A stretch of 64,000 bases of DNA from an uncultured Lachnospiraceae bacterium (GTDB lineage Bacteria > Bacillota > Clostridia > Oscillospirales > CAG-272). The translations under genes were made by a program, and so were the position numbers. The stretch lies in NCBI GenBank assembly GCA_964631595.1, contig CAZVXL010000003.1, positions 9,341 to 73,340 on the forward strand. Direction: 5' to 3'. A model generated the notes under the pieces. It saw nothing but the letters and a program-made list of their open reading frames with translations, was not told where the DNA came from and made no database searches. Shown piece by piece: positions 3,592 to 22,788 of this stretch; within the stretch, counting starts at the first letter, position 1; every line of letters starts with the position of its first letter.

Positions 3592-4173
3592 TTATTTCAC
3601 TTGTTTTTTTCTCATGACAAATCTTTTGATAAACAAAATCACGCCCAACGGCCAAAAGATGAAAAATGCCAGAATAATCATCGGCCATGAATACAAAATG
3701 CGTATTTTTCCATTTTTACGGAATTTTTCCTCATCAATAGATCTTGTATCTCCCACAAAAGGCACAGCTTCATAACTTCCCAGTATCGCCTTTATCTCTT
3801 TGATCATCTTTTCTGCGGCAAGAGCTTTGTTTTCGTATGCTGTATACCGCTGAACATTTGTAAGATAAAAGTCAAAATCATCCCTTAATGCACAGTTTTC
3901 AAGCATAAACGGCAGTATTATTTTTCTTTGAGTGATTGCCATATCCACTTCCTTGGAAACCCATTGCGATGATTGAGCCTTTGCGGACAATATGAGCACA
4001 AAAACCTTTGCCTGTTTTATCGCCCGCGGTATTTCCACTGCATAGCTCGAACCTCCCGGTATACACGCCGGTGCCATCCAACACGATATTCCATTATTTT
4101 CAAGAACGGATCTCACCCAGTTTGCTTCCTCTATTTCTTCAGCTTTATAACTGATAAAAACATCTCTATTCAT
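3592..4173 (-). CDS. TIR-domain protein with C-terminal transmembrane helix
   Basis: The N-terminus reads DVFISYKAEE...ISCWMAP...VFVLILSAKAQSSQWVSKEVDMA, a TIR-like layout with the conserved Glu retained. The C-terminus has a hydrophobic helix, ILYSWPMIILAFFIFWPLGVILFI. The start overlaps the upstream stop by 8 nt (4166-4173). Confidence 0.75.
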   Translation of the reverse strand: MNRDVFISYKAEEIEEANWVRSVLENNGISCWMAPACIPGGSSYAVEIPRAIKQAKVFVLILSAKAQSSQWVSKEVDMAITQRKIILPFMLENCALRDDFDFYLTNVQRYTAYENKALAAEKMIKEIKAILGSYEAVPFVGDTRSIDEEKFRKNGKIRILYSWPMIILAFFIFWPLGVILFIKRFVMRKKQVK

Positions 4174-7135
4174 AAGCCGTTTCCCCTGTATTTAATAATT
4201 CAAAAGCATATTTAAAATCCGAGTTACAGTCTATCAGCCTTTCAAACAACTGATAGCCTATATCCGTCTTAAGACTTGCCTTTTCGTTGATCCACATTTT
4301 CACCTGTTCTTTAGAAAACTTCTCCGGCGATTTGCAGCAATACTCGCAAAACGTGTATACTGTTTGCACAAGATTAATATCTCTTGCTATTCGTGCATTC
4401 GTATTTGTGCCGTTATAATAACCGGTCCAAATATTATAATAATAAGTCAAATTAGCAATATTCGGATAAGTTCCCTTTAAGAAAAGCTTTCTTAAAACAT
4501 CATTTTGTTCTCTAAGCTCTTTTTGAGGTTCGATCAAGCTGGTCGTCTGATCTCCTATTGATGCTTCAGCCATATCATGTACCAAAAGCATATCCAGTAT
4601 TTCTTTCTTACAATAGCCTTCCATACTGTGCTCTTCCGGCAAGAAAAACATTGCCACTAGCCAAGCGCTGTACGAATGTTCCGCTATGCTCTCCGGATCT
4701 TCAACACCGAACCTCAGCCATTGTTGCCGTTTTATTTGTTTGAGATCTCTGTATTGATTGTATATCCTTGTAGAAACATCAAACGCTTTATCTTTCAGAT
4801 AAAGATTCAGATCTTCCTCAACACTTCTGAAATAATACAACAACTTGCCCGAAACAATATTTTGCGGTCTTGTTTGATAAACCCTCAAATACTCAAGAGC
4901 TTTGTTAACGTAATAAGATATATTAAACCTCACCGCACATTTTTTATCTTGAATTCTCGCTTGCAGCAAGGTCAGCATACTGACAAGGTTATTTTCAACA
5001 AACTTACCGGTATTATTATACAGGCCGACCTCTATTCGACTATTCAATATCTTTATAGCTTGTTCTCCCGCAGATAGATCTGTATCAAAGTAGTAAGCAT
5101 CGTGTGCCGCCATTTGATAATCATCGCCAAAGTATTCGATTGTTGCGCCACGATTGATAGCATTTGCGACATCATTGGCTACAACAACAGACAGATACTC
5201 ATCCATCATATTAGCCTGACCTTGAAAAAGCAATCCTGTACATATTGCTCTAAACAAAAAATGATTATCGCAATTTTCTTGATTGAACTTATTGTTAGTC
5301 TTAACAAGGGGCTTATATTTAGCAAATTCCCGAGCCAGCATATCGATCGCTTCATTAGCAAGATTACTGAACGATATACGTCCCAACCAATATACCGCAT
5401 TGCTTTTTTGTCGAATATCAAAAGCCTCGTAATTGTCCTTAATAAAGCTCAAAAACATCTCTTGCAGCTCATAGTTATCTTTAAGAAACGATACCAGAAA
5501 ATGATTGGCTGTTGCCGTAAGCATTGTTCCGAAAAAGCTATGCTCATCAAACTTATGATAATTCTTGATCCTATAGACAAAATAGTAGGCTATCAAAAAC
5601 TCAAGATATGTATTGTGTTTATGAGGCAAAGACCACATTGCCCCATTATATTCAATACTGTTCCCGACGCCGGATTGAATAAACACGTAATTATATAACT
5701 CTTGCGAAATTTCAACAAGCTTGTCCTCATCACCATATGTTTCCGACAGCGCCAATTTCTCATACACATCAGTTAGAATCAGATCGGACATACTGTATGA
5801 AGAAAGCATTTCCTTCGCAATAAGTCTCACAATAAATATATCTATCATCGGAAATTTCAGTGCCTTTATACAATTATACACTTCTTCCGCATTCAAATCG
5901 TAATCGTATATTTTAATAACACTCTCGATTATCGCAATAGCAGATGCTTTAGCCTCGATTGGAACCTGATTCAAAACAAATATGTATCCTTTTCCATCGC
6001 CCAGTATCGGAATAACTCGCTTTAACTTAGAACGGTTTTTAATCAGTCCTTTGTCAACAGTGCAAACTCTATTAAATTTGGGAAGGCCTTTCCATAAACT
6101 CAAAACAATACTTTCGGGAGAAATTTTGGAAACATTATGCTCTCGAATCGCCTCGATAAACAGAACCGGTTTTACATCATGGTTGTCATTTACATACCCA
6201 AAAAATTCACAGAACTCCTTCTGTAAAATTTCGGTCATCTGCTCTTGAACATTATTACTGTTATAGGGCAGCTTTTCATAATAACTAGCCGACACATAAA
6301 ACGGTAATGCATTTGATACACCGGATTTGAAGTTTTGCAGCATTTTATAAAACGCAAGCTGGAGGATCATATTTTTAGCACTGCCGGGCAACCCATGCAC
6401 TTGAACACTTGAATCTGCGGCAGAAGACATTTCCTCTACAAGAATCTTAACACAGTCCGCGCCCGAATCAAGTGTTTCTTTATGTTTGTATATAGATACA
6501 GTTTCCTTGAATAATCTTTGAGCATTTGAAAGAACAAATTCAAATCCCTCATCATCCCGTACCTTATCATACAAATTATATGGATATTTTTTGCTCTTTT
6601 CGATAATAATACTTACTATTTCATCGCGCGAAAAATCAAATTTCCGAACACGGTCGGCAGGCGCAGAGGGCTCATGAATTTCCGGTTGCAATACAGTTGA
6701 AGAAATTTCGGATACAGTGATAGGTTTCTCTTTATCAGCAAAAGATCTAATCGTATCGACCAAAGTATTTAAGCCATTATTGATATCATTGTAAGCTTCT
6801 ATCCAATGCTTTCTGCCGAGAAAATAGAGATATTCATCCGTAAACACAAAATCTTGAATTTTAAACGGAATAATGATTTTTTTATTATCAAATGCAATGC
6901 TCACTTCATTGCTGACATGGCCGGAATTATTTGTATTTTCCGAAGCCAAAAGAACCAATAAATCACATTTTTTAATTGCATTAACGATCTGTGTCGCATA
7001 GTTACTGCCGGCTTCCACATTTCTGGGTGCTATCCAACATTTGAAACCATTACTTTCCAAATACTCACAGACTTTTAATGCGACATCTAATTCTTTGGAA
7101 GAATAACTTATAAAAACATGATTCATTACATTCAT
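4166..7135 (-). CDS. TIR / degenerate P-loop NTPase-like (STAND/NACHT-like, tentative) / YfbR-type HD-domain fusion protein, 989 aa
   Basis: The N-terminal TIR reads HVFISYSSKE...FKCWIAPRNV...LLVLLASENTNNSGHVSNEVSIA. A Walker-A-like VHGLPGSAKN lies at nt 6371-6394 and a Walker-B-like PVLFIEAI follows it. The middle region is long and looks helical. The C-terminal HD motifs are ESIAEHSYSAWLVA and LLVHDMAEASIGD (HD codons at 4574-4579), matching the H...HDxxE..GD pattern of 5-prime-deoxynucleotidase-type HD domains. An AGGTGA RBS precedes the ATG at 7135. Confidence 0.7.
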   Translation of the reverse strand: MNVMNHVFISYSSKELDVALKVCEYLESNGFKCWIAPRNVEAGSNYATQIVNAIKKCDLLVLLASENTNNSGHVSNEVSIAFDNKKIIIPFKIQDFVFTDEYLYFLGRKHWIEAYNDINNGLNTLVDTIRSFADKEKPITVSEISSTVLQPEIHEPSAPADRVRKFDFSRDEIVSIIIEKSKKYPYNLYDKVRDDEGFEFVLSNAQRLFKETVSIYKHKETLDSGADCVKILVEEMSSAADSSVQVHGLPGSAKNMILQLAFYKMLQNFKSGVSNALPFYVSASYYEKLPYNSNNVQEQMTEILQKEFCEFFGYVNDNHDVKPVLFIEAIREHNVSKISPESIVLSLWKGLPKFNRVCTVDKGLIKNRSKLKRVIPILGDGKGYIFVLNQVPIEAKASAIAIIESVIKIYDYDLNAEEVYNCIKALKFPMIDIFIVRLIAKEMLSSYSMSDLILTDVYEKLALSETYGDEDKLVEISQELYNYVFIQSGVGNSIEYNGAMWSLPHKHNTYLEFLIAYYFVYRIKNYHKFDEHSFFGTMLTATANHFLVSFLKDNYELQEMFLSFIKDNYEAFDIRQKSNAVYWLGRISFSNLANEAIDMLAREFAKYKPLVKTNNKFNQENCDNHFLFRAICTGLLFQGQANMMDEYLSVVVANDVANAINRGATIEYFGDDYQMAAHDAYYFDTDLSAGEQAIKILNSRIEVGLYNNTGKFVENNLVSMLTLLQARIQDKKCAVRFNISYYVNKALEYLRVYQTRPQNIVSGKLLYYFRSVEEDLNLYLKDKAFDVSTRIYNQYRDLKQIKRQQWLRFGVEDPESIAEHSYSAWLVAMFFLPEEHSMEGYCKKEILDMLLVHDMAEASIGDQTTSLIEPQKELREQNDVLRKLFLKGTYPNIANLTYYYNIWTGYYNGTNTNARIARDINLVQTVYTFCEYCCKSPEKFSKEQVKMWINEKASLKTDIGYQLFERLIDCNSDFKYAFELLNTGETAYE

Positions 7136-8605: not shown

Positions 8606-8606
8606 C

Positions 8607-9077: not shown

Positions 9078-10883
9078 TTAATCATCATCTTTTTCTTGCT
9101 CTCTTAACGGAAGTTCAGCAAATGGAACAAGACAGTTATGCATCTTTGCCAAATCGTTTCTTCCGGATTTTTCCACTGTACCGCCGTATACATACCCCTC
9201 CGAACGCATATACGCATTCCAACGACGATGTTCCAAAATTCTTAAAGGCCACAATTCATCTTGCGTACGGTCTTTAGGGGCTTTTTCGATTCCCGGTATG
9301 CGGCATAGTATCTTCATCTTGCGATGTATAGCTGATGCGATAGACGACCTGTAATTATAGTCATACTGCCAAAACTCATTTTCATTACCCCACTTCAAGT
9401 GACGCTTCAGCGCTTCTTCTTCAATATCCGAGCTGAGAATAACATCTTCGGAATAAGATGACCGCATATCCCCGATAAAATCAATATTATACTTTTCCCC
9501 TTTGAAATTTGTAATACCGAAAAGCGCTTCCCTTTTGTCGGTACTGTATACAACAGCTTGTATTTCGGGCGTATATCCTACTCTGGCAAAAGCAGCACGA
9601 AGGTTTATGGCTGTAGTAATATTCTTCTCATCGTTTCCCAGCGCCACAAAAACATATGTTGTTATCGGCAAAGCCAAAACCGTATCATAGAAACTTTTTG
9701 TTTCCACATCTATTCCGGAATGAACTGCAATTTTGTACTTTGCTTCACCCTCAATATCATACACTCCATTATATTTTGAATCCATTAATTCCGGACAAAG
9801 AGCAGCAAACCTATCGTCTGCCATTTTATCCATATCAAAAGCGTTGATTTCGACTTGATAACCATCCATCTGACAAAACCAAGCCAGTGACTTTGTCATC
9901 TCGGTTCCGTGCTGTCCCATGCCAATCACGACAGCATTGATTTTTTTGGTATCTGTACCGTCATCATAAGCACTTTTAAACACTTTCTCATAACCGTTTT
10001 CATAAAGATTACGCATAACAAGCGATTGAACATCGTTTATGCGGCGCACCTTTATTTTAATACCATCCCCCATTCCGTTGAAAATACTTGCCAACAGCAT
10101 TTCCGATTCCGCCTGAGTTGCAAAAACATACAAATTTGTGTTTTCTCTATATTTGAATTTTTCAAAAATTCCAAGTGCCTGACTTATATTTTCAGACTGA
10201 TCATCGCCTATAGCAAAGAAATTCAAATCTTTATTCTTACTGTGAAACGAAAAATCAACAGTAGTAATATCATTCTTAAAGCATACAGCTCCAAATTCTT
10301 TTGCATTTTCAATGAGTTCGCTGTTTTGTTCTTCTTCCTTATCATATACATCGGTAAATAACAAAAAACGGTTTTTCCTATCATTTTTACGCAAACTTTC
10401 CGCTAATGCCAATGATTTTTCATTAAGCTCCGAAAAAATAAAAACATTCGAATTATAATGAGTGATATAACGTTTGTACGCCGATATATTCTTAAAAAAC
10501 GACAGCACAAAGCCAAATGTCAACATCGGAGCCAGAACGAATAAAATCGAAAAAAGTGTTGTGTATCCTTTAAAGATCAAGCCCTGCGATGCACTCAAAT
10601 TAGATGTTATAAATTCAAATTCTCCATCCACAATAAAAAGTCTGATCATATTGTGAACTGAAATAAGGATCGTTTCAACAATTCCGCATTCATAAGCATC
10701 AAAAACATTCATGTAAATCGGTATAAACAATATGACAGATGACAGGGCAACACCGATAAACAGTATTTTGGAAGGATCAAGTAATCTTCCTCTCTTGTAA
10801 GTAGACTTGATCCTGACTACCGCAAAAACGACAGAGCCCAAAAAGCATATTGCTGAAACAGCAAAAAATACGATCCACTTCAT
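9078..10883 (-). CDS. membrane protein with Rossmann-like (TrkA-N/RCK-like) domain(s) and a C-terminal RyR-like domain
   Basis: The N-terminus has about four hydrophobic helices (MKWIVFFAVSAICFLGSVVFAVV..., GYTTLFSILFVLAPMLTFGFVLSFF). A GxGxxG motif, VVIGMGQHG, lies at nt 9905-9931. The C-terminal LEHRRWNAYMRSEGYVYGG...KMHNCLVPFAELPLREQEKDDD resembles bacterial RyR (PF02026-type) domains. The track ORF starts at a TTG at 10961, but the ATG at 10883 is preceded by GGAGGA. Confidence 0.6.
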   Translation of the reverse strand: MKWIVFFAVSAICFLGSVVFAVVRIKSTYKRGRLLDPSKILFIGVALSSVILFIPIYMNVFDAYECGIVETILISVHNMIRLFIVDGEFEFITSNLSASQGLIFKGYTTLFSILFVLAPMLTFGFVLSFFKNISAYKRYITHYNSNVFIFSELNEKSLALAESLRKNDRKNRFLLFTDVYDKEEEQNSELIENAKEFGAVCFKNDITTVDFSFHSKNKDLNFFAIGDDQSENISQALGIFEKFKYRENTNLYVFATQAESEMLLASIFNGMGDGIKIKVRRINDVQSLVMRNLYENGYEKVFKSAYDDGTDTKKINAVVIGMGQHGTEMTKSLAWFCQMDGYQVEINAFDMDKMADDRFAALCPELMDSKYNGVYDIEGEAKYKIAVHSGIDVETKSFYDTVLALPITTYVFVALGNDEKNITTAINLRAAFARVGYTPEIQAVVYSTDKREALFGITNFKGEKYNIDFIGDMRSSYSEDVILSSDIEEEALKRHLKWGNENEFWQYDYNYRSSIASAIHRKMKILCRIPGIEKAPKDRTQDELWPLRILEHRRWNAYMRSEGYVYGGTVEKSGRNDLAKMHNCLVPFAELPLREQEKDDD

Positions 10884-11052
10884 ATTTCCTCCAACAACAC
10901 TGTACCGTACAGATTCCAAGTATTCATGCAATAGCAACTCAACCGATCTATATCTTTCCAATTACAACAGAGTATCCGTCAAAAGACGATCAATTCAGCA
11001 AATATTTGAAATTTCACTATGACTTATCAGTTCAAGCAAGCGCCAAAAGGCA

Positions 11053-11081
11053 AGTATAAAATATTTATTTCTTCTTGACAA
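11053..11081 (-). promoter_or_regulatory. candidate internal sigma-A-type promoter upstream of the RyR-domain gene
   Basis: The minus strand reads TTGTCA - 17 nt - TATACT (ttgtcaagaagaaataaatattttatact). AT-rich DNA makes chance matches likely. Confidence 0.3.
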
Positions 11082-11210
11082 AAAGCTAATATCCGGATTT
11101 CGACAAGCTCATTATCCCCAATAAAAGAACTTTATCGGGGATAATGAATAAAGAAGTAATCTTGTTTCTATCGTGATTCAATTATAGAATTCGGCAAAAA
11201 CACAATAGCA

Positions 11211-14200
11211 TCATAACTTTGTCATAAAAAATGTTATTGTTGATCTATCATCGTGAGCTGAATACGCATAATTTGAATTCAACTTCACATTTGCTTTCAA
11301 ACCCGCAAATTGAATAACTTCTCTAAACCTGCCATCATCCGCCAACCGTTTCTTTGCTTCACTGAATGCCTTTACAGAACTGAACTTAAAAGACACATCA
11401 AGCTTATTTCTTTTAACACTTTCGCAAACGATACTTTTTATCCGTTCCAAATCATACGTTTCAAAATACACCCCCTGCCGTCTGTAATAATTGCATTTTG
11501 TTGCCGTACATTCGGGCAATGGGAAGTCACTCTCAGGTGTATGAGCTTCAAGACGAGTCAATTCCTCGGTCGTTATACAAAAGCAATCATAGCTGACCGC
11601 ATCAGTCCGTGCCTTATCTTTCTTGGTATCAGAACCATCACCCCATGTAACATCAATGTGGTAATAATCCCCCTCCAATTTGATCAGGTTCCAAGCATGA
11701 GTATCGCTGGTCACATAAGTACATTCGATACCGCAAAGATTAAGCAAATACTGCATAGCCTTAGCATATCCTGCACACACGGCCTTTTTGTTAACAAACA
11801 CGCCGTAAATCGAACGCAAATCATCAGGAACTTCCGGAGATACGGTGTCTTTCTTTTGCCGTTCCAAACCGATCGTATCATAATCAACCAATTGGATAAT
11901 GTTCTCGTAAATACGAAGTGTAACTTCATAATCGCTCATCGTATCGGTAACTGAAGTCAAAAACGATTTTGTTGCAACATCGATCTTATCCTGACGTTTT
12001 TCAGCCTCATCTTGTGTCATACAGTACTTGAATTCAAGTTTGTTTACAACATGAGTCGCGCTATCAAAGAAAAACGTCGTTCCGTGCTGAAACCAGAATA
12101 TTTCAGGATGATCCCTTTGAATATAATCAATAATCTTTTTGATTTGAGCATCTGTTACGGAAGCGTTGAAATCACTTATTTCAGTGCTAAAAGTATTTAT
12201 CGTCTCCAGCACAGTATCGTAAACCGCTTTTTCATCGTTATTCAGAAGGCTGTAAGCATATCTGTTGAGCGAATCGGGATCACGCTGAATTGTTCCTTTA
12301 ATTGGACCTATAGGAACAGTAACACCTGTACCCGATGTGGGAGTCTCACTTTCGGTATCCCCGGGGTCGATTTCGTTCGTGGGCATCGCAACTGCAAATG
12401 AGCCACAGAATTCCGGAGCAAGTGGAGTATCCACATTCATAAAAGGTGTTATCTTTGTAATAACAGTACCCAAAGAGAACGGATAATTAGCACGGTAACG
12501 CAAAAAGCCATGACCGTACTCATCATCACGATACGAAGTGATGATTTCCTCTCTTTTTGCTGTTGCAGGCTCATTGATCAGGTAAGCATACTGGATCTCG
12601 ACCCACTTTGCCATACCCTCATAAATCTCCAAACGCATCTTTTTTCCGTATTTTTTACGGATAGCCTTATCATTCCAATTAATATACTGCCAAATATGCG
12701 TGAGCTCGTGAGCCATCGAAAGCATGGATGCCATACGTGGGGACCCGTTTTCTACCAGCAATGTATATCCGTTCTTATCACTAATTGCAACACCGAGAAC
12801 CCGTCCATCACTCTTAGGTGTGGGAATAAACGCCTTTCCCAAGCGCTTATGAAGAATTTTTGAGTTGACCATTTCAACCTTAATACCCGCATTAATTCGA
12901 ATGCCAAAGAAAGACTCCATGTTTCTCTTTACATCCTCAAAAATTCTGCGGAATTCTTCTCCGGTCTTAATCGCTGTTCTTCCACAATTCAAGCATCTGT
13001 CGCGACCGTCCGCAAGAGTTTCATACTCAACTCCAAAAATTTCCGTCCCGCAAAAATCGCAGTATCTCACATCAGGTTTTCCGGGCTTATAAGTTGCTTC
13101 AACAAATTCGGCAATCTTCTTGCTCTCTCTTACTTGCTTTAGTGAATTTTTTTGCATACCCATTTCCGAGAGATAATCAAGTGTTCCCGAAAGGTCTATG
13201 GAAGCAGGCTCACACTCTTTACCGTAAAGCATATAGTAACGTTCATGATAAGGTCTACGCTCGGAATAAAAAGCCGGAGTAGCATCGGTGTCATTTTCCA
13301 CAGAGTAAAAAGCATCGCTCATCATCGGTGATTCGACCATTTCAACAGGCTCCTTAACAACATCCGTTTCAGAAGTTTCAGCAGTCTCTATTGTATCATC
13401 TTCCGATGTGCCGTCATCATTTGTGTTTTCCGGAGATATATCATCTTCAGAATCGGAAGTATCTTCAATTTGCTTCTTTTTCCGTTTAAGCCAATCAAAG
13501 ATTCTTTTTTTCTTCTTTTCCGAACCGGTCTTTTCTCCGGTGTTTTGAGTTCCGGCTTCATTCTCTATGGGGTTTTCATCTTCCGTCTTTGCTGGCGGGG
13601 TCATGGAAATATCTGTAGGAACCTCATCGGTTGGCTGCTCTTCACCATGCGTTTTTTTATCCTTCCTTGGTTTTTTCTTAAACCACCCCTTAACCTTATC
13701 AAATATCCTCTTAAATCCTCGACCTATTGCCGAAAATATTCCCTTTATGCCCTTTTTCTTCGATTTAACAGCATCGTCCGGATCCGTAAACACGACAGGC
13801 GGCTGAGGATCCGGTTGCGGGTCAAGACTTGATTCAAGCATTTCCATATGCCAGTCAAGATAATCGTGAATAATGCTGAAAATTCTTTGAAGATTTCTTT
13901 CCACGGCTACCGTCAATCCAAGATCAAGCTGACTGTCTTCAATAATGTATATTGCATTCTTTTGAAGCTGGCAGCTGTCGCTTTTCAATGAATACGTCAA
14001 TGGTTCGTCCACATCTGTTCCGGTCAGAAAAGAATGATCGGTAACTGCGCAAATATATGGCTGATTTTCAGCGAAAATAGTTCTGAATACCTCATTAAAC
14101 AAAACAGTAATTGTATATCGAACATTATCATTTAATCGTCCGTTAAACTCGGGCAATTCAATACGAAGAATCTCTTTATTCCGATAGATACGTCTCGGTA

Positions 14201-16928
14201 TTCCGCTTTTTTCTCCTTCAAAGGTAATTCGCTTTGCAGTGCCAAAATCATTGTACTTTTTCATACGATAGTATCCGGTAGTATCAACACTGATATCGGC
14301 AAATTCTTTGACAACTTTCATTCCCGCGATATTCTGCTGTGCCCCGATCTTATCCGACTGTCTTATACCATGAATAACATATTCGCGTATTTGCCTATAT
14401 GAAGGGCGATCCACAATATGATCGGCAGCTCTACGCACTAAAACCTGACCGTCGGCAGTTAAATATTGCATTTCATAATACTTGCCGCCAAACGTAAAAA
14501 ACTGACCCGGCAAATACTTTTGATAAATTTGCCCGCAAAGTTCGGAACCAAGGTAATATCGCTCTCCTTTTTCGTCTTCGGAAATGTATCCGGCAGAACG
14601 AAGTTCTGACACACACAAGCTCAAAAACTCGCGATCAACAATAGAATATGTTGTTTCCAATTTACCGATCTTCAAATTAAATGTCTCTTCCACTTTAATT
14701 ATATCATGCGTCCATTCGGTATCCCCGAGCTTGAGTGCTTTGGAATAAACTTTATTGACAGCCTGACGATAATCGTCAGGAAGTTCAGTGTTTTTCGAAA
14801 CTTCCGAATAACAGTTATACAGTTCGAACCAAAGCTGCTTTTTTAAGTCAAAAACATCAACTCCGAGCAATGACAGTTCCTTATCCAAAATATCAGAGCA
14901 AACGGGGAAAGTACTCATCATCAATACAAGGCGGAGAATTGTATTGCGATTACTTCTTGTATAATCCGCAACAATAAACGGAATCGCCTTTGCATCGGTC
15001 TCAAAAACAGAAGCATTATCCGCCATATAATCCCTTAAAAGGTATTCCGAAGAGATTACATTAATAAAGCCTTGCTCTGTGGTTCTGGTGGAAAAATCAC
15101 GAAGTATCTCAAACATATTATACGACTCATCTTCAATAGTCATATAATTGTTTTTTTTCACTTCGGCACTCCAAAAATTAGAAGTCGTAACAAATCTCTC
15201 ATCCATGATCTCTTGACTTGTCGGCAAGCCGGCATATTTCGTAAGATCATAATAATATTGTTTGTCGATCCACCGAATATCAGTTACAGGAAAAGCTTCG
15301 CCTCCGTACCATTTTGTTTTTGAAACCTGATTTTTCAGTGCGGCAAATGATAACTCAGTACCCATTCCAAGATATCTTGAAATATTAGGCACAAGGCGAT
15401 GATGCAGATAATCCTCATCTGCTTCCCAACACATATACGAAGAAGTCCCGAGATGCTTTTTGGTAGCCGACACCTCCGTTATACTTGTCATCAGCGCATG
15501 TGACATCGCATCAACCAAGCCATCGCAGTTCTTATCGCATATACAGTATACTACACTTTTGTTTACTTCGGTCTTGCACTTCTTGACAAGCAGATTCAGA
15601 CCTATCTGTGCAGTTGAAATCAGCTTGGATGGTTCAATTATTACAAAAAATCCCACATTTTCAAGAAATTCAGAATTTGCATTTTGAAGTTCAATATTTA
15701 AAACGTCAGATCTTGTAACGATACCTATATCAATATCTTGCTTTTCGGATGTCAAAACGCCAACATTCCACATATACGGAATATCAGTCACCGATTCAAC
15801 ACCCTTTTCCACCCAATCTTTAATATCATCTTCAATGGAATGTCGTCCCAAAACAATTAAAACCTTCTGATGACTCAAAAGAACACGGTTCATCGGATAA
15901 AAGGCATACGGTATCAAATCGTTATAAAACGGATTATTGAATAAAATGCTTTTTCCGTTCAACATATCGAGAGAAGAATAGAGATAGTTATGATCAAGCG
16001 AATATCCGGTTCGGTTCAATGCATCAAAATAAGAAGCAAAGGAAACGACCTTCGGGTCCTCGCTTTTTTCAAGTTCACGAATAATTTCATCAGTCGTAAC
16101 ATCATAAGCAAGTGCATTGTTAACACCGGTATTTTCCGCAAGCAGTTTATCACCGAAAACAGATCGCAAAAACTTCCGCAGTAAAGAATAGTTGACAATT
16201 TTATATGCATCTTCATCTTCACCTAAAATGTACTTGGAATACTCTCGTTTTGTTGCTCCGTCAAGATAAAATCCAAGTTCTCCAATAACAAAAATACCGA
16301 AAACAGGATAAAAAACCGATTTCATTAGTCCTTCGTAGTAAAAATGCCGACTTGCGATCATTAACAGTACCGATAATACTACAGCACTGTTATAGAAAAA
16401 ATTGAACATACTCCGAACCTGAACATAGCTTTCCTTAATACACCACTTGTTCTTGTCCGAAAAATACTCATAAAAATTCCCAGCCACTTTTGTGTGAAGC
16501 TTTCCGTCGGTTTTTACAGCCTTAGACATAATTTGAATGCAAATCTTTTTGAGCACCATGTAAGCCAAGATCATAACCGTATTTGCAACAAAGAAGACCC
16601 AAAAATTCAAATTAAGCCCTGCTATCAATGATCCCACAAACCTTCCAATCCGTCCGATCACATTTCCGGCTTGTGTCGGCATCCATGAGGATCCGGATAA
16701 TGCCAATATCCATTTGGATAAATTGTTCATAAGCTTTATAAGCCACTCGTTTAGAGAATCCATCAGAAGCATTCCAACGATAGCATAAACCAATGCAATA
16801 ACAGGCATAAAAAACTGTTTGCTTCGATCTATCTTCGGAAGATTCAACTTCTTGCCGGCTAAACAAAGAATTACAAAAGGGAGGATCATCGATATCATTT
16901 TTGCAATATTAAGAATTACCTCAATCAT
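11211..16928 (-). CDS. 1905-aa polytopic membrane protein with Zn-ribbon, HExxH metallopeptidase-like and transglutaminase-like cysteine protease-like modules
   Basis: The first ~230 aa are hydrophobic and contain several predicted helices. A K/E/D-rich low-complexity linker spans about nt 13300-13830. The Zn-ribbon reads CDFCG...CLNCG (nt about 12981-13064). The HExxH motif is SMAHELTHIWQ (HELTH at nt 12696-12710) with a downstream EGMAKWVE. The transglutaminase-like core reads KAVCAGYAKAMQYLL / DTHAWNLIKL / HIDVTWGD, with Cys at 11775-11777, His at 11697-11699 and Asp at 11652-11654. The start overlaps the upstream stop by 8 nt. Confidence 0.65.
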   Translation of the reverse strand: MIEVILNIAKMISMILPFVILCLAGKKLNLPKIDRSKQFFMPVIALVYAIVGMLLMDSLNEWLIKLMNNLSKWILALSGSSWMPTQAGNVIGRIGRFVGSLIAGLNLNFWVFFVANTVMILAYMVLKKICIQIMSKAVKTDGKLHTKVAGNFYEYFSDKNKWCIKESYVQVRSMFNFFYNSAVVLSVLLMIASRHFYYEGLMKSVFYPVFGIFVIGELGFYLDGATKREYSKYILGEDEDAYKIVNYSLLRKFLRSVFGDKLLAENTGVNNALAYDVTTDEIIRELEKSEDPKVVSFASYFDALNRTGYSLDHNYLYSSLDMLNGKSILFNNPFYNDLIPYAFYPMNRVLLSHQKVLIVLGRHSIEDDIKDWVEKGVESVTDIPYMWNVGVLTSEKQDIDIGIVTRSDVLNIELQNANSEFLENVGFFVIIEPSKLISTAQIGLNLLVKKCKTEVNKSVVYCICDKNCDGLVDAMSHALMTSITEVSATKKHLGTSSYMCWEADEDYLHHRLVPNISRYLGMGTELSFAALKNQVSKTKWYGGEAFPVTDIRWIDKQYYYDLTKYAGLPTSQEIMDERFVTTSNFWSAEVKKNNYMTIEDESYNMFEILRDFSTRTTEQGFINVISSEYLLRDYMADNASVFETDAKAIPFIVADYTRSNRNTILRLVLMMSTFPVCSDILDKELSLLGVDVFDLKKQLWFELYNCYSEVSKNTELPDDYRQAVNKVYSKALKLGDTEWTHDIIKVEETFNLKIGKLETTYSIVDREFLSLCVSELRSAGYISEDEKGERYYLGSELCGQIYQKYLPGQFFTFGGKYYEMQYLTADGQVLVRRAADHIVDRPSYRQIREYVIHGIRQSDKIGAQQNIAGMKVVKEFADISVDTTGYYRMKKYNDFGTAKRITFEGEKSGIPRRIYRNKEILRIELPEFNGRLNDNVRYTITVLFNEVFRTIFAENQPYICAVTDHSFLTGTDVDEPLTYSLKSDSCQLQKNAIYIIEDSQLDLGLTVAVERNLQRIFSIIHDYLDWHMEMLESSLDPQPDPQPPVVFTDPDDAVKSKKKGIKGIFSAIGRGFKRIFDKVKGWFKKKPRKDKKTHGEEQPTDEVPTDISMTPPAKTEDENPIENEAGTQNTGEKTGSEKKKKRIFDWLKRKKKQIEDTSDSEDDISPENTNDDGTSEDDTIETAETSETDVVKEPVEMVESPMMSDAFYSVENDTDATPAFYSERRPYHERYYMLYGKECEPASIDLSGTLDYLSEMGMQKNSLKQVRESKKIAEFVEATYKPGKPDVRYCDFCGTEIFGVEYETLADGRDRCLNCGRTAIKTGEEFRRIFEDVKRNMESFFGIRINAGIKVEMVNSKILHKRLGKAFIPTPKSDGRVLGVAISDKNGYTLLVENGSPRMASMLSMAHELTHIWQYINWNDKAIRKKYGKKMRLEIYEGMAKWVEIQYAYLINEPATAKREEIITSYRDDEYGHGFLRYRANYPFSLGTVITKITPFMNVDTPLAPEFCGSFAVAMPTNEIDPGDTESETPTSGTGVTVPIGPIKGTIQRDPDSLNRYAYSLLNNDEKAVYDTVLETINTFSTEISDFNASVTDAQIKKIIDYIQRDHPEIFWFQHGTTFFFDSATHVVNKLEFKYCMTQDEAEKRQDKIDVATKSFLTSVTDTMSDYEVTLRIYENIIQLVDYDTIGLERQKKDTVSPEVPDDLRSIYGVFVNKKAVCAGYAKAMQYLLNLCGIECTYVTSDTHAWNLIKLEGDYYHIDVTWGDGSDTKKDKARTDAVSYDCFCITTEELTRLEAHTPESDFPLPECTATKCNYYRRQGVYFETYDLERIKSIVCESVKRNKLDVSFKFSSVKAFSEAKKRLADDGRFREVIQFAGLKANVKLNSNYAYSAHDDRSTITFFMTKL

Positions 16929-19137
16929 ATAACTCCTCCCTTGTAAGCATTACTGATTCCACATAATCAACCGGAATAACGACCTTGTTCCCCTCTTGGA
17001 GAAAATCAATCTTCTTTTTAGAATATATACTCGGCATTTCATACTCGTAATCTTTCAACACTGTAAAATCGAATTCGTATGGAGCACATTCACTGATGTG
17101 GATTTTTTCAAAATCAACATATTTAGAGAACATTTCATAAATGCTCTTAATGCGATCAGATATTTGCATATCATGATAAGAAAGTATTCGTTTTGTTTTA
17201 GTAACAGCCGAATCTTTTTTCTTTAAGACAGAAAAATCTCTCATAAGATTGCAAACACAACTTAAATAATAGGACAGTTGCGACAAAGCACTATTGATCT
17301 GAAGGCAAATTCCACTCATCGTATAATTGAAATGCTTAAAACGATCGACAAGTTTTTTTCTGAGAACAAACAAATAAACAAAGCCAACAGCGAAAAAGGC
17401 TGCCATTGTAACTCCTGTTAGCATTAACGAAAACAAAAACGATCTTGTTGTATTCAAGTTACCAAATATCAACGGCAAAAATCCTATGAAATATGCAAGC
17501 AAAGCCGACAATCCGACGAATACAGTTTTCTTTTTTGTCATTCTCTGAGAGATCATGTCGGTGATTTCTTTATTGGATCTTTGTATTTGCTCTGTGAATT
17601 TCTTTGTATCAAACAGATGAGTCGCAGCAACCTCTACCATTTTTTGCTCCAATTCATCAATATGGTAGCCCACATCTTCAATTTGATTTTCAGACAGTAA
17701 TAAAGTCCTGTCATCATCAATGAAATTGTTTTCACGAAGCCCTTCAAAAACTGCAGTTTTCACGGCTCTTCTGGGCTCCCGCAAATATCTTACAAAGCGC
17801 TTACTTATATTTCTGTATTGCTTCGACCAATAAACAGTCTCATCGATAGGACAGTCAGAAGACAATCCGATTCCTTTATACTCAGCATACAATTCATTCT
17901 CGTCAGTTTGGGAATTTATTTTAACCGGTATATTGATATCTGATTCAAAAAGTCTTTGAGCCGTACGATCATCAACAAACGCTTCGCTGTCACGATCCAA
18001 TTGTAAATTGATATCTTTTAACGATAATTGTGTGGACTTTAATTTGCTAATATATTTTTCACAGATCTCTGTTATGATCTCGGAATTGAATTCAATCTGA
18101 GCCCTATATACATTATTGGGATTTATTATACCTTTCGGCGTATCATTATTCGCAATAACGAGTAGTAGGCAGAAAAATTCGATCTGCTTAAATCTATACT
18201 GCTTATTATCTTTCGGAAGCATATCAAACAGAATAAATTTAAGTTTATCACTATATAGATTAAACTCAGTAAATCTTGACGAAGAATTCTCGTCTTTCTT
18301 TTTCCATTTAATATCTTGTTCAACTTTTTCGAAGTCGAATATTCTCGGAGAAATACAAATCACCTCTAATGGCAATTTATCTTTCAACGAAAAGTTGTCG
18401 GCAATGTTTTTTAGCAATTCTTGCTTTTTCGTGTTTTCAATTAAGCACTCAGTGTATTCCGGATCAAAATACATCGGATCATTACCAATAAATTTGATAA
18501 AATCGAGTATTTCTGCATCGGGAATCAAATCAATGATTCCCGATACATCACCCAACTTAATAAAAGAGATCAATAGATCGATCTTATCTTCTGCAATGAA
18601 CCTTCTCAAAGCATCGCGCTGATACTTATCAAGTCTTGTCGCTGTTTCCAAACAATTCAAAGCATTGAGTTGCTTCTCCAACATATACTTATATGTTGGC
18701 ATACGGTCTGAAATCAACAATGAATACTCATCATTGGGAATCACAGATCTACATCCAAGGTTACCGCTTAATGCAACCGTGAATTTAACTAATGGATTTG
18801 AAGCAGCTTTTTCATAGGCCGATATCCTTTGCTCGCGCCTACTTTTCAAACAATCCCAGCTTCTGTCTTTTCTCGAATAGAAGGATTCGCTATATTCGGT
18901 AAAATCAAACGGGTTTAGTTTTTCACAGCCATTATTGCAAATTATAAGTGCACGCCACTCATCCTGATGCTCAATCAAACTATATATATCCGGCACCATA
19001 GTATCAATGTCAGCTGCGTCTTTATTCCATTCGCAAAAAGCCACCTGCTCCGAATTGTATAGCGGTCCAAAAAACATTTTAGTTTCTTCGAAGAGTTCTA
19101 TTGTTTCTTTTTCGGCAAAAATCACCGTAAACATCAT
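16921..19137 (-). CDS. 738-aa protein of unknown function with a C-terminal transmembrane hairpin
   Basis: This is a long ORF with a GGAGG RBS. It has two adjacent hydrophobic helices (VFVGLSALLAYFIGFLPLIFG and FLFSLMLTGVTMAAFFAVGFVYLFVL). I recognise no catalytic motif. Confidence 0.6.
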   Translation of the reverse strand: MMFTVIFAEKETIELFEETKMFFGPLYNSEQVAFCEWNKDAADIDTMVPDIYSLIEHQDEWRALIICNNGCEKLNPFDFTEYSESFYSRKDRSWDCLKSRREQRISAYEKAASNPLVKFTVALSGNLGCRSVIPNDEYSLLISDRMPTYKYMLEKQLNALNCLETATRLDKYQRDALRRFIAEDKIDLLISFIKLGDVSGIIDLIPDAEILDFIKFIGNDPMYFDPEYTECLIENTKKQELLKNIADNFSLKDKLPLEVICISPRIFDFEKVEQDIKWKKKDENSSSRFTEFNLYSDKLKFILFDMLPKDNKQYRFKQIEFFCLLLVIANNDTPKGIINPNNVYRAQIEFNSEIITEICEKYISKLKSTQLSLKDINLQLDRDSEAFVDDRTAQRLFESDINIPVKINSQTDENELYAEYKGIGLSSDCPIDETVYWSKQYRNISKRFVRYLREPRRAVKTAVFEGLRENNFIDDDRTLLLSENQIEDVGYHIDELEQKMVEVAATHLFDTKKFTEQIQRSNKEITDMISQRMTKKKTVFVGLSALLAYFIGFLPLIFGNLNTTRSFLFSLMLTGVTMAAFFAVGFVYLFVLRKKLVDRFKHFNYTMSGICLQINSALSQLSYYLSCVCNLMRDFSVLKKKDSAVTKTKRILSYHDMQISDRIKSIYEMFSKYVDFEKIHISECAPYEFDFTVLKDYEYEMPSIYSKKKIDFLQEGNKVVIPVDYVESVMLTREELYD

Positions 19138-19167
19138 ATTACCTCCCCTAAAAACTTTAGTTTTATA

Positions 19168-22767: not shown

Positions 22768-22788
22768 GATATATTCCTCCCAGAATAA

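What the first reader, a model, noticed from the sequence alone, without database searches (positions are those of the whole stretch)
4166..7135. TIR - degenerate P-loop NTPase-like - YfbR-type HD fusion (989 aa)
The sequence shows an N-terminal TIR and a glycine-rich GLPGSAKN (nt 6371-6394). This resembles Walker A but has Ala in place of the second Gly and Asn in place of Ser/Thr. A hydrophobic strand ending in acidic residues (VLFIEAI) follows, then a long helical region. The C-terminal HD domain has motifs (AEHS...; VHDMAEASIGD) that match the 5-prime-deoxynucleotidase (YfbR/HD_3) pattern H..HD..E..GD. TIR plus STAND architectures are known among bacterial NLR-like defence proteins. I do not recall a YfbR-type HD at the sensor end of such proteins. 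My inference is that the protein could couple NAD+ cleavage with dNMP or dNTP hydrolysis, giving nucleotide depletion. Alternatively the HD could sense or degrade a nucleotide signal.
Basis: partly seen in the sequence, partly recalled or inferred. Interest (0 to 1): 0.7.

Follow-up and report, generated by a model that had tools for sequence, protein, structure and literature searches.

The report
TIR–remodelled NACHT–HD_3 bacterial NLR-like protein
This gene encodes a bacterial relative of animal and plant NLR immune receptors, with an NAD-cleaving TIR domain at the front, an altered NACHT switch in the middle and, unusually, a nucleotide-phosphatase-like HD domain fixed at the end where such receptors normally carry their sensor.

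Summary
A 989-aa ORF lies at 4166-7135 on the minus strand. It has a TIR_2 domain (aa 7-123) and an HD_3 domain (aa 797-945), and GLPGSAKN sits exactly at nt 6371-6394.

The middle region is a STAND NTPase module of NACHT ancestry. AlphaFold models (pTM 0.71 and 0.84) hit NOD2, RPP1, NLRP3/9/14, NLRC4 and Apaf-1. A profile of the middle region finds 608 cluster representatives. Many of these carry canonical GxxGxGK[ST] plus the NACHT-specific DGxDE, and some are hit by Pfam's NACHT model.

The main new point is that NACHT plus C-terminal HD_3 is the constant core (121 of 143 distant relatives). The N-terminus swaps among defence effectors: TIR, PNP_UDP, caspase, trypsin, PRTase-CE, HD-CE and SMEK.

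In the window's clade the nucleotide pocket changed in concert: Walker A Ser/Thr to Asn, Walker B Asp to Arg, and Asp at the sensor-1 position.

The gene lies in a low-GC island next to tRNA-Val. It recurrently, but not obligately, neighbours an FtsZl1/vWA cluster.

Most likely it is an NLR-like abortive-infection protein whose HD module monitors nucleotides. I rate it a new variant of a known kind. No biochemistry has been done.

The parts
4166..7135 (-). Whole gene: TIR / remodelled NACHT (STAND) / helical region / HD_3, 989 aa
   Evidence: ORF list and translation; SD-like AGGTGA upstream; about 115 full-length homologue clusters
6737..7123 (-). TIR domain (aa 5-133), with conserved Glu77 in the S71-x5-E77 motif
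   Evidence: Pfam TIR_2 68.7 bits; E77 in 105 of 105; Foldseek matches SPARTA TIR-APAZ TIRs at rmsd ~3 A; most conserved domain, 63% mean pairwise identity
6641..6736 (-). Disordered, hypervariable linker (aa 134-165)
   Evidence: pLDDT <50 for aa 135-163; 10% mean pairwise identity
6416..6640 (-). Pre-NBD helical/beta-hairpin segment (aa 166-240), variable
   Evidence: AF2 secondary structure; 29% mean pairwise identity
5951..6415 (-). Nucleotide-binding domain of the STAND/NACHT module (aa 241-395), five-strand beta-alpha-beta core
   Evidence: AF2 models; Foldseek top hits NOD2 5irl at E 1.6e-6 and 7.2e-7, plus RPP1, NLRP3/9/14, NLRC4, Apaf-1, NAIP5
6371..6394 (-). Remodelled Walker A, GLPGSAKN (aa 248-255): Gly to Ala at position 6, Ser/Thr to Asn at position 8, Lys retained
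   Evidence: Coordinates; lies between strand E243-248 and helix H254-271; G248, G251 and K254 in 105 of 105, A253 in 85, N255 in 92; canonical GSGK[ST] in P0093/94/99/105
6137..6166 (-). Remodelled Walker B, VLFIEAIREH (aa 324-333), corresponding to hhhhD[GAS]hDE in relatives; invariant R331 replaces the second acidic residue
   Evidence: Strand E322-331; R331 in 105 of 105, position 328 = E 68 / D 34; relatives read ILIVDGIDEL and similar; N255 pairs with R331 in 120 of 128
6053..6055 (-). Asp361 at the end of beta-4 (sensor-1 position), where I expect Arg in STAND NTPases
   Evidence: D361 in 103 of 105; co-occurs with Walker A Asn in 122 of 128, while canonical-P-loop relatives vary here (G, D, R, S...)
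5621..5950 (-). Helical domain 1 plus winged-helix-like part of the STAND module (aa 396-505)
   Evidence: AF2 secondary structure; included in the NOD2/NLRP alignments spanning ~650 columns. Domain boundaries are approximate.
4766..5620 (-). Conserved all-alpha region (aa 506-790), including the near-invariant NRGxxxEYYGD motif; co-inherited with the NBD across the superfamily
   Evidence: Profile hits cover positions ~20-620 of 627 in distant relatives; motif nearly invariant in A3; 50% mean pairwise identity, as conserved as the NBD
4190..4747 (-). HD_3 phosphohydrolase-like domain (aa 797-982): R803, W806, H820, H853, D854, E857, D862, D919
   Evidence: Pfam HD_3 83.9 bits; profile against PDB gives HDDC2 at E 1.7e-16; Foldseek TMt 0.79 to HDDC2; residue conservation
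4373..4375 (-). Asn921 at the position of the fourth HD metal ligand (HDDC2 D143)
   Evidence: Ungapped, high-posterior phmmer alignment to HDDC2 with W903 = W125 and N921 = D143; N in 101 of 112 close relatives, D in 104 of 116 distant relatives
3592..4173 (-). Possible partner gene: 193-aa TIR_2 protein with a C-terminal transmembrane helix, overlapping the target's 3' end by 8 nt
   Evidence: Pfam TIR_2 E 1.2e-20; sequence; homologous TIR gene directly downstream of homologues in L001 (a 667-aa TIR-LRR), L021 and L023 at 61-74% identity. No functional link has been shown.
9078..25023 (-). Recurrently associated but non-obligate cluster: vWA (744 aa), Tubulin_2/FtsZl1 (1199 aa), 738 aa, 1905 aa with transglutaminase core, 627 aa
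   Evidence: Pfam; cluster parts lie within 10 kb of homologues in about 9-11 of 35 species loci and in L001-L006; absent next to P0030 and P0114
26081..26157 (-). tRNA-Val at the right edge of the low-GC island (~3500-26000) that carries the gene
   Evidence: ARAGORN; GC 35-42% inside against ~52% outside

Best explanation
The gene encodes a single-chain bacterial NLR-like (NACHT-clade STAND) immune protein carried on a horizontally acquired island.

Shown here:
- An N-terminal TIR domain with the conserved catalytic-position Glu.
- A central STAND module descended from canonical NACHT NTPases.
- A conserved helical region plus an HD_3 phosphohydrolase-like domain that is the constant C-terminal partner of this NACHT lineage, while the N-terminal domain is swapped among typical defence effectors.

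Inferred:
- In the resting state the protein is a monomer. An infection-linked cue acting on the C-terminal helical/HD_3 module releases the NACHT module to oligomerise. This brings TIR domains together to form composite NADase sites, as in SARM1, plant TNLs, SPARTA and TIR-bearing bacterial NLRs, and NAD+ depletion aborts the infection.
- The cue is most likely a (deoxy)nucleotide or nucleotide-pool change bound, and perhaps slowly turned over, by the HD_3 pocket. Candidates are a dNMP surge from host-DNA degradation or phage-specific nucleotides.
- In this clade the Asp-to-Asn change at the fourth metal ligand would favour binding over turnover.
- The concerted Walker A Ser/Thr to Asn, Walker B Asp to Arg and sensor-1 Asp changes, with the P-loop Lys kept, suggest the NACHT pocket still binds a phosphate-bearing ligand but no longer runs a normal Mg-dependent hydrolysis cycle.
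For: Domain identities: Pfam TIR_2 and HD_3 above cutoff; AF2 pLDDT 86 / pTM 0.71 and pLDDT 84 / pTM 0.84; Foldseek top hits NOD2, RPP1 (a TIR-NLR), NLRP3/9/14, NLRC4, Apaf-1, NAIP5, Avs5.

NACHT ancestry: the middle-region profile finds 608 representatives. These carry GxxGxGK[ST] in 68 of 123 plus hhhhDGxDE, which Kibby et al. give as the NACHT-defining motif. Pfam NACHT hits 12 of 47 and NPHP3_N hits 6 of 47.

NLR-like modularity: HD_3 is present in 121 of 143 distant representatives and this TIR in 21. N-termini include PNP_UDP_1, PRTase-CE, SMEK_N, TIR_2, caspase, trypsin, HD-CE and Metallophos.

TIR competence: E77 in 105 of 105.

HD pocket under selection: R803, W806, H820, H853, D854, E857 and D862 are conserved over sequences of ~20% identity.

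No hypervariable sensor: helical region 50% and HD_3 58% mean pairwise identity, against 48% for the NBD.

Concerted pocket remodelling: N255 with R331 in 120 of 128, N255 with D361 in 122 of 128.

Precedent for functional Avs with degenerate Walker motifs: KpAvs8 (PMC13581612).

Defence-like context: low-GC island next to tRNA-Val, with two other TIR ORFs; relatives in a prophage-like region and beside DUF4062, radical-SAM, kinase and NUDIX genes.

Autonomy: P0030 sits alone between FTHFS and uvrB.
Against: There are no experimental data. Defence, NADase activity, oligomerisation and nucleotide binding are all inferred.

No PADLOC or NCBIfam defence model matches beyond the TIR domain.

In the wider superfamily the HD tetrad H/HD/D is fully intact, as expected for an active enzyme. 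This fits an effector or catalytic role at least as well as a pure sensor role.

Some relatives have almost no N-terminal domain (for example P0209, 836 aa). There HD_3 might be the only enzymatic output.

Conserved sensors also occur in Avs proteins that recognise conserved phage proteins, so lack of hypervariability does not prove a small-molecule cue.

I could not inspect model coordinates, so whether N921 or D919 faces the metal site rests on sequence alignment alone.
Confidence: 0.45

Rival explanations
1. Dual-effector nucleotide depletion. The cue is sensed elsewhere, for example by the helical region. Oligomerisation then switches on two enzymes: TIR degrades NAD+ and HD_3 dephosphorylates dNMPs or dNTPs, starving phage DNA synthesis.
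For: The HD catalytic set is intact across the wider superfamily, with HHDD in 106 sequences. The closest relatives are nucleotide phosphohydrolases: HDDC2, the yeast YGL101W protein, and phage DatZ-type dATPases and 5'-deoxynucleotidases. Relatives lacking an N-terminal effector (P0209 and similar) would need HD_3 as their output. Nucleotide-pool depletion is an established defence strategy (dGTPase/Clover, PMC12265719).
Against: In NLR-like families effectors are the swappable part, whereas HD_3 here is constant and C-terminal. The window's clade has Asn at the fourth metal ligand, which should weaken catalysis exactly where a strong effector would be needed. From my own knowledge, YfbR-type 5'-nucleotidases are housekeeping enzymes and are not evidently toxic.
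Confidence: 0.27
2. The protein is not autonomous. It is the effector arm or 'third component' of the neighbouring vWA-FtsZl1 (Tubulin_2) system, analogous to the iSTAND protein of the vWA-MoxR ternary conflict systems. The tubulin-like GTPase would replace MoxR as the switch.
For: Homologues at 33-57% identity flank the same cluster, on the same strand and at either end. Cluster parts lie within 10 kb in about 9-11 of 35 species loci. Kaur et al. 2020 describe vWA plus an NTPase switch plus an inactive STAND fused to an N-terminal TIR. The window protein has a non-canonical P-loop.
Against: About 24 of 35 species loci have no cluster component within 10 kb. P0030 is inserted alone between housekeeping genes and P0114 has no tubulin neighbour. 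Distant superfamily members sit in unrelated contexts. There is no MoxR in the island. Co-location may simply reflect defence-island clustering.
Confidence: 0.15
3. HD_3 is a built-in off-switch or signal processor. It hydrolyses a TIR-derived nucleotide product (ADPR-type or cyclic ADPR isomers), or a second-messenger phosphate, to limit or tune signalling. The neighbouring small TIR proteins would be signal generators in a Thoeris-like arrangement.
For: There are three TIR ORFs within 5.5 kb. The TIR domains give partial hits to ThsB models. NUDIX genes recur beside superfamily members.
Against: HD_3 is equally constant in relatives whose N-terminal domain is a protease, PNP_UDP or PRTase and which therefore make no TIR product. 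No ThsA-like effector (SIR2/SLOG or Macro) is present in the island. From my own knowledge, HD_3/YfbR-type enzymes are phosphomonoesterases or triphosphohydrolases rather than pyrophosphatases or cyclic phosphodiesterases. The extra TIR genes are not conserved in most loci.
Confidence: 0.08
4. It has a non-immune role, for example a regulator of nucleotide metabolism or of the tubulin-like membrane-remodelling machinery. In that case TIR acts as a scaffold rather than an NADase.
For: Makarova and Koonin 2010 proposed membrane remodelling for FtsZl1 operons. No defence-database model recognises the protein beyond its TIR domain.
Against: E77 is invariant in the TIR domain. The N-terminal swapping partners are hallmark conflict effectors: caspase, trypsin, PNP_UDP, PRTase-CE, HD-CE. 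The gene has a patchy, island-borne, low-GC distribution next to a tRNA and relatives occur in prophage-like context.
Confidence: 0.05

Closest known systems
Bacterial NACHT proteins (bNACHT; Kibby et al., bioRxiv 10.1101/2022.07.19.500537) and antiviral STANDs (Avs)
   Same: Three-part logic: a swappable N-terminal effector (including TIR), a central STAND/NACHT oligomerisation module and a C-terminal input region. Relatives carry the NACHT D[GAS]hDE motif and Pfam NACHT hits. Structural best hits are NOD2/NLRP-type NACHTs.
   Different: The C-terminus ends in a conserved enzyme-like HD_3 domain instead of TPR, LRR, WD40, SNaCT or FGS sensors. HD is absent from the part of that paper's domain-abbreviation list that I could read. 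PADLOC gives hits only to TIR-containing models, over aa 3-130. In the window protein, Walker A (GLPGSAKN) and Walker B (EAIRE) fail the NACHT consensus, whereas bNACHT01 needs its Walker A lysine within a canonical motif.
iSTAND component of vWA-MoxR ternary conflict systems (Kaur et al. 2020, PMC7159879)
   Same: An inactive or deviant STAND NTPase with N-terminal TIR (or protease/EAD) fusions, genomically linked to a vWA protein and an NTPase 'switch'. The window gene lies in a cluster with a vWA protein and a tubulin-like GTPase.
   Different: There is no MoxR AAA+ partner. The linkage to the vWA cluster is facultative (~30% of species loci). The P-loop Lys is retained and the changes co-vary rather than being lost. 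A C-terminal HD_3 is not described for iSTAND. The taxonomy also differs: gut Clostridia here, against cyanobacteria, proteobacteria and bacteroidetes for iSTAND.
HDDC2 / YfbR / YGL101W-type HD_3 5'-(deoxy)nucleotidases and phage DatZ dATPase
   Same: The fold (TMt 0.79 to HDDC2) and the motifs LKxxxRxxW, PESxxxH, LxHDxAExxxGD and W...K/R-x-x-[D]. All substrate and catalytic positions I could map are conserved, apart from the fourth ligand.
   Different: It is fused to the end of a ~790-aa TIR-NACHT protein instead of being a ~200-aa stand-alone enzyme. The fourth metal ligand is Asn in this clade. An extra invariant acidic residue (D919) sits two residues upstream. PF12917 (YfbR-like) scores below its cutoff.
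Plant TIR-NLRs (e.g. RPP1) and SARM1/SPARTA-type oligomerisation-activated TIR NADases
   Same: An N-terminal TIR joined to a STAND module. RPP1 is among the top structural hits covering TIR plus NB-ARC. The TIR resembles SPARTA TIRs, which are activated by tetramerisation.
   Different: The NOD is of NACHT rather than NB-ARC type. There is no LRR/C-JID sensor. Activation by oligomerisation is inferred here, not shown.
KpAvs8 (PMC13581612)
   Same: A STAND defence protein whose Walker A/B motifs are degenerate, interpreted by the authors as lacking ATPase activity.
   Different: It belongs to a different STAND family with a different sensor (a phage-protein sensor) and has no HD_3. The specific Asn/Arg/Asp co-substitution pattern is not reported there.

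Membership tests
TIR domain (Pfam TIR_2, PF13676) | Profile match above the curated cutoff | tested here: met
   68.7 bits against a cutoff of 28, aa 7-123; 35 of 35 aligned homologues match
TIR domain (catalytically competent NADase-type) | Conserved catalytic glutamate | tested here: met
   E77 is in 105 of 105 members, within S71-x5-E77. Assigning it as the catalytic Glu rests on motif position (my own knowledge) and on fold similarity to SPARTA TIRs. Activity was not tested.
STAND NTPase superfamily | AAA+-like P-loop core followed by helical and winged-helix domains, structurally similar to known STANDs | tested here: met
   Foldseek against PDB: NOD2 at E 1.6e-6 and 7.2e-7 (prob 1.0), then RPP1, NLRP3/9/14, NLRC4, Apaf-1, NAIP5, SAMD9 and Avs5. 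TM-scores are modest (0.35 or less).
NACHT clade of STAND | Canonical Walker A GxxxxGK[ST] | tested here: not met
   The window protein has GLPGSAKN (Ala at position 6, Asn at position 8). The motif is met in relatives: P0093/94/99/105 within the family and 68 of 123 distant representatives.
NACHT clade of STAND | Walker B with the D[GAS]hDE signature (Kibby et al.) | tested here: not met
   The window protein has E328-A-I-R331-E332. The first acidic residue is conservatively kept, and the second (Asp) is replaced by an invariant Arg. Relatives read DGIDE, DGADE and similar.
NACHT clade of STAND | Match to Pfam NACHT (PF05729), or demonstrable homology to proteins that match it | tested here: inconclusive
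   None of the 35 close members hits PF05729, even at E up to 1. However, the middle-region profile retrieves relatives at E 1e-40 to 1e-60, of which 12 of 47 hit NACHT (best E 6.7e-7) and 6 of 47 hit NPHP3_N. I conclude descent from NACHT. Membership by the family's own motifs fails.
HD_3 (PF13023) phosphohydrolases | Profile match above cutoff and HD fold | tested here: met
   83.9 bits against 22.5; HDDC2 at E 1.7e-16 by profile; TMt 0.79
HD_3 / HD superfamily (active enzyme) | Metal-ligand tetrad H...HD...D | tested here: not met
   H820, H853 and D854 are present. The fourth ligand position (HDDC2 D143) is N921. It is N in 101 of 112 close relatives and D in 104 of 116 distant relatives. 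Asn could still ligate a metal, so activity remains unknown.
YfbR-like 5'-deoxynucleotidase (PF12917) | Profile match above the curated cutoff | tested here: not met
   22.8 bits against a cutoff of 25.9, and only aa 796-877 are matched
YfbR-like 5'-deoxynucleotidase (PF12917) | dNMP-specific phosphatase activity | not testable with these tools
   Needs an enzyme assay
Thoeris (ThsA/ThsB) | A ThsB-type TIR together with a ThsA effector (SIR2/SLOG or Macro/TM) | tested here: not met
   Only partial ThsB-model hits over the TIR domain (E 1e-6 or weaker). Thoeris type III ThcB4 scores 27.7 bits against a cutoff of 220. No ThsA-like gene is in the island.
iSTAND vWA-MoxR ternary system (Kaur 2020) | Co-encoded MoxR AAA+ and vWA proteins with an inactive STAND third component | tested here: not met
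   A vWA protein is present (weak, 19.4 bits) but no MoxR. A Tubulin_2 protein is there instead. Linkage is absent in about two thirds of species loci.
Avs / other catalogued defence STANDs (PADLOC-DB v2) | Match to a catalogued defence-system protein model outside the TIR domain | tested here: not met
   All nine PADLOC hits cover only aa 3-130, the TIR domain

The most novel reading that the evidence does not exclude
This could be the founding example of an NLR-like receptor class that uses a (pseudo)enzyme, an HD_3 nucleotidase-like domain, as its ligand sensor. Such receptors would detect infection through the (deoxy)nucleotide pool, for example dNMPs released by phage nucleases or phage-modified nucleotides, rather than through phage proteins. 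Its NACHT pocket would have been converted, by a co-evolved Asn/Arg/Asp triad, into a Mg-independent, non-hydrolysing nucleotide latch. A corollary is that its recurrent linkage would mark the long-enigmatic FtsZl1-vWA-transglutaminase clusters as immune systems.
Probability: 0.2. Interest if true: 0.85.

Novelty: new variant of a known kind. Interest (0 to 1): 0.62.

Why it matters
Bacterial NLR-like proteins studied so far sense phage proteins, or host chaperones, through repeat or helical sensors. A large NACHT lineage with a nucleotide-phosphohydrolase-like domain fixed at the sensor end would be different: at least 608 clusters at 50% identity, with many effector types. It would point to metabolite or nucleotide-pool surveillance by NLRs, linking two major themes of bacterial immunity, namely STAND receptors and nucleotide depletion or sensing.

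The concerted Walker A / Walker B / sensor-1 substitutions also offer a natural experiment on how STAND switches work without ATP hydrolysis. This is relevant to 'degenerate' NLRs in plants and animals.

Finally, the recurrent linkage to FtsZl1-vWA clusters gives a testable lead on operons whose function has been unknown since 2010.

All of this is computational. The value lies in a clear, cheap set of experiments.

Tried and rejected
- Sequence-level identification of the middle region failed. Pfam at E up to 1 on 35 members, and PDB phmmer/hmmsearch with the full-length profile, found only TIR and HD. Identification needed structure prediction plus a deep profile search.
- I first assumed the invariant D919 was the fourth HD ligand. 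I rejected this after the HDDC2 alignment and the KDLD/KQLD comparison placed the ligand at position 921.
- I considered that P-loop remodelling and the HD Asp-to-Asn change were coupled. I rejected this because 28 sequences have the Asn P-loop with an Asp ligand, and 8 have a canonical P-loop with an Asn ligand.
- Thoeris-like system: rejected (no ThsA; ThcB4 far below cutoff).
- Obligate membership of the tubulin/vWA operon: rejected.
- PrsW and the TM230 ORF as partners: rejected, as they are never conserved near homologues.
- The Clover dGTPase paper is unrelated. It concerns a SAMHD1-like HD, and its 'STAND' hits were the word 'standard'.
- Literature searches for TIR/STAND/HD, YfbR/HDDC2 in defence, PRTase-CE/HD-CE and FtsZl1 in defence found no description of this architecture. 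One query was rejected for syntax.
- The supplements of the 2026 STAND survey are not held, so I cannot exclude that the lineage is listed there.
- An exact-sequence contig look-up for the window protein returned nothing. The database gives it no name.
- The GNAT assignment of the extra ~220-aa modules is only weakly supported (E 0.03).

Full report
**1. Observation**

The window contains a 989-codon ORF at 4166-7135 on the minus strand. It starts with ATG, preceded by an AGGTGA Shine-Dalgarno sequence.

- GLPGSAKN: aa 248-255, nt 6371-6394.
- VLFIEAI: aa 324-330.
- AEHS: aa 818-821.
- VHDMAEASIGD: aa 852-862.

Pfam confirms TIR_2 (aa 7-123, 68.7 bits against a cutoff of 28) and HD_3 (aa 797-945, 83.9 bits against 22.5). 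The narrower YfbR-like model PF12917 falls below its cutoff (22.8 against 25.9).

The gene is real and under selection. About 115 clusters at 90% identity share the whole architecture. All named genomes carrying it belong to gut-associated Clostridia, including Lachnospiraceae, Christensenellales, Oscillospiraceae and Acutalibacteraceae. Public databases call the proteins only 'HD domain-containing' or 'TIR domain-containing'.

**2. The middle region is a STAND NTPase of NACHT ancestry**

Sequence profiles alone saw nothing between the TIR and HD domains.

An AlphaFold2 model built on a 35-sequence alignment is confident (pLDDT 86, pTM 0.71). It shows a beta-alpha-beta core in which GLPGSAKN forms the loop between strand 243-248 and helix 254-271. 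VLFIEAIRE forms the next-but-one strand, 322-331.

Independent sequence evidence closes the gap. A profile of aa 165-790, searched against 1.84 billion representatives, finds 608 proteins at E up to 1e-3, of which 209 are at E up to 1e-30. The distant ones carry canonical GxxGxGK[ST] in 68 of 123 sequences, together with hhhhDGxDE. Kibby et al. name this motif as the one that distinguishes NACHT from other STANDs. Pfam's NACHT model hits 12 of 47 of them, and NPHP3_N hits 6 of 47.

**3. The P-loop is remodelled in concert, not merely decayed**

Inside the close family there is a graded series:

| Walker A form | Where found |
|---|---|
| GxPGSGK[ST] | P0093, P0094, P0099, P0105 |
| GSAKS, GSGKN | intermediates |
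| GSAKN | 81 of 105 members, including the window protein |
| G(N/S)xG(S/T)(E/D)KN | most divergent clade |

K254, G248 and G251 are invariant in 105 of 105.

Across the superfamily, three substitutions co-vary:
- Asn at Walker A position 8 pairs with Arg at Walker B+3 (R331) in 120 of 128 sequences.
- Ser/Thr at that position pairs with Asp/Glu at Walker B+3 in 63 of 85.
- Asn also pairs with Asp at the end of beta-4 (D361, the sensor-1 position) in 122 of 128.

My inference is as follows. Losing the Mg-ligating hydroxyl while gaining a cationic side chain, and keeping the phosphate-binding Lys, looks like conversion to Mg-independent ligand binding without hydrolysis. A functional Avs with degenerate Walker motifs (KpAvs8) is a published precedent.

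**4. HD_3 is the constant partner and TIR is one of many effectors**

Of the 143 distant representatives, 121 carry this HD domain. That is essentially every one that is complete at its C-terminus. Only 21 carry this TIR.

Pfam scans of 47 non-TIR members found HD_3 in 45. Their N-termini were PNP_UDP_1 (8), PRTase-CE (3), SMEK_N (2), TIR_2 (2), caspase (2), HD-CE, calcineurin-like phosphoesterase and trypsin. This is the classic NLR/Avs pattern of swappable N-terminal effectors on a conserved NOD-plus-C-terminal unit.

The HD domain therefore occupies the position that is normally the sensor.

Within the close family there is no hypervariable region apart from the linker and the pre-NBD helices. 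Mean pairwise identities are: TIR 63%, HD_3 58%, helical region 50%, NBD 48%. This is unlike the fast-evolving SNaCT sensor of bNACHT01.

**5. HD active site**

The closest solved relative is human HDDC2 (profile E 1.7e-16; TMt 0.79). The deposited HDDC2 mutants H77A, D78A and D143A mark its metal ligands.

In the alignment, H853/D854 match H77/D78. R803, W806, H820, E857 and D862 all have counterparts. However, D143 aligns, ungapped and with high posterior probability, to N921, not to the invariant D919.

The most divergent family members read KDLD, matching HDDC2 KQLD. This confirms the register. The position is Asn in 101 of 112 close relatives and Asp in 104 of 116 distant ones. This change is independent of the P-loop state.

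So the wider lineage has a fully intact HD site. The TIR-bearing clade in the window has a neutral fourth ligand. Catalysis may be weakened, but the pocket is clearly maintained.

Phage relatives of the domain include DatZ-type dATPases and 5'-deoxynucleotidases, though these matches are weak.

**6. Genomic context**

The gene lies in a 22-kb island of 35-42% GC, within a genome of about 52% GC. The right edge of the island abuts tRNA-Val. The flanking genes are housekeeping genes: Der, PlsY and an IspH-S1 fusion.

The island also encodes:
- Two further TIR ORFs.
- A PrsW protease.
- A five-gene vWA / Tubulin_2 / transglutaminase cluster, of the FtsZl1-vWA type described but not explained by Makarova and Koonin.

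Homologues at 33-57% identity also flank that cluster. By tblastn, about 9-11 of 35 species-level loci have cluster parts within 10 kb, and about 24 have none. P0030 is inserted alone between FTHFS and uvrB.

The protein is therefore self-sufficient in principle, and the linkage is recurrent but facultative.

Distant members sit in other conflict-like settings:
- A prophage-like region.
- Between DUF4062 / radical-SAM / thymidylate-kinase-like genes and a NUDIX gene that overlaps its 3' end.
- With an M48 peptidase.

**7. Mechanism**

The shown steps are the domain identities, the NACHT ancestry, the modular architecture, the residue conservation and the island context.

The inferred steps are these:
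- An infection cue acts on the helical/HD_3 module.
- This licenses NACHT-mediated oligomerisation.
- Oligomerisation assembles TIR NADase sites and depletes NAD+.

I favour a nucleotide cue bound by the HD pocket, for three reasons. The HD is constant while effectors vary. The pocket is conserved while the fourth ligand is neutralised in this clade. There is no hypervariable surface.

It is supported by the intact catalytic tetrad in the wider lineage and by relatives that lack any N-terminal effector. I cannot separate the two models computationally.

Lesser rivals are a role as the effector arm of the vWA-tubulin system, an HD that trims TIR products, and a non-immune role.

**8. Comparison and novelty**

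The protein works like a bNACHT/Avs-type NLR, and it descends from NACHT. [quoted passage not shown] I therefore file it as NACHT-derived rather than as a canonical member.

It resembles the iSTAND idea of Kaur et al., but it lacks MoxR and has a different taxonomy.

I found nothing that describes a NACHT-HD_3 lineage in any of the following:
- PADLOC.
- NCBIfam.
- The part of the bNACHT paper's domain catalogue that I could read.
- The main text of the 2026 survey of 589 STAND clades.
- Targeted literature searches.

Verdict: a new variant of a known kind, of moderately high interest, and entirely dependent on follow-up experiments.

Noticed in passing
window 9078-25023 (-); also L001-L006, L012, L013, L017, L021, L023, L024, L029, L031, L043: This is a five-gene cluster: vWA (744 aa), Tubulin_2/FtsZl1 (1199 aa), 738 aa, 1905 aa with a transglutaminase core, and 627 aa. 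It is of the uncharacterised FtsZl1-vWA operon type (PMC2875224) and has no PADLOC hit. TIR-NACHT-HD_3 genes recurrently sit beside it, on the same strand and at either end. That hints the cluster may itself be a conflict system.
   Followed up: partly
window 3592-4173 (-): This 193-aa TIR_2 protein ends in a hydrophobic transmembrane helix and overlaps the target's stop codon by 8 nt. A homologous TIR gene (61-74% identity) lies directly downstream of homologues in L001, L021 and L023. In L001 it is a 667-aa TIR-LRR protein, so the window copy may be a short or truncated form at the island edge.
   Followed up: partly
window 8042-9074 (-): A 155-aa TIR ORF (8607-9074) and a membrane-protein ORF (8042-8734) overlap by 128 nt in different frames, with no convincing internal start. 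This may be a frameshifted TIR-transmembrane gene, or a sequencing error.
   Followed up: partly
window 7144-8025 (-): A PrsW-family intramembrane protease gene sits between the TIR genes. It is never conserved next to homologues of the target, so it is probably unrelated cargo.
   Followed up: partly
P0005, P0009, P0043, P0092-P0110 etc.; L005 9436-9957: Longer family members (1200-1466 aa) carry extra ~220-aa modules at the N-terminus, the C-terminus or both. These look weakly GNAT-like (Acetyltransf_1, E 0.03). In L005 a separate 173-aa GNAT gene (25 bits, above cutoff) lies immediately upstream of the homologue. Their role is unknown.
   Followed up: partly
L049 4047-11523; L002 958-4909: Nucleotide-themed neighbours lie next to superfamily members. 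Upstream are genes for DUF4062 (a reported TIR-like NADase family), an NTP-transferase, a radical-SAM protein and a thymidylate-kinase-like protein. A NUDIX gene overlaps the 3' end. Elsewhere there is a NUDIX gene plus a second TIR-AAA_16/NPHP3_N-TPR STAND gene, in divergent orientation.
   Followed up: no
L048 471-14235: The PNP_UDP-NACHT-HD_3 relative P0206 lies in a prophage-like region with RadC, Rad52/22, PD-(D/E)XK, MerR and DksA/TraR zinc-finger genes. Some members of the lineage may therefore be phage-borne.
   Followed up: no
window ~3500-26160: The whole 22-kb low-GC island (35-42% against ~52%) is encoded on one strand and ends at tRNA-Val (26081-26157). No integrase turned up among the ORFs I scanned, and I did not search for flanking direct repeats.
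   Followed up: partly
window 4766-5620 (-), aa ~655-670: The motif NRG(A/F)x(I/L)EYYGD in the helical region is nearly invariant across the whole superfamily, even at ~20% overall identity. Its role is unknown. It could be an interface with the HD domain or a ligand site.
   Followed up: no
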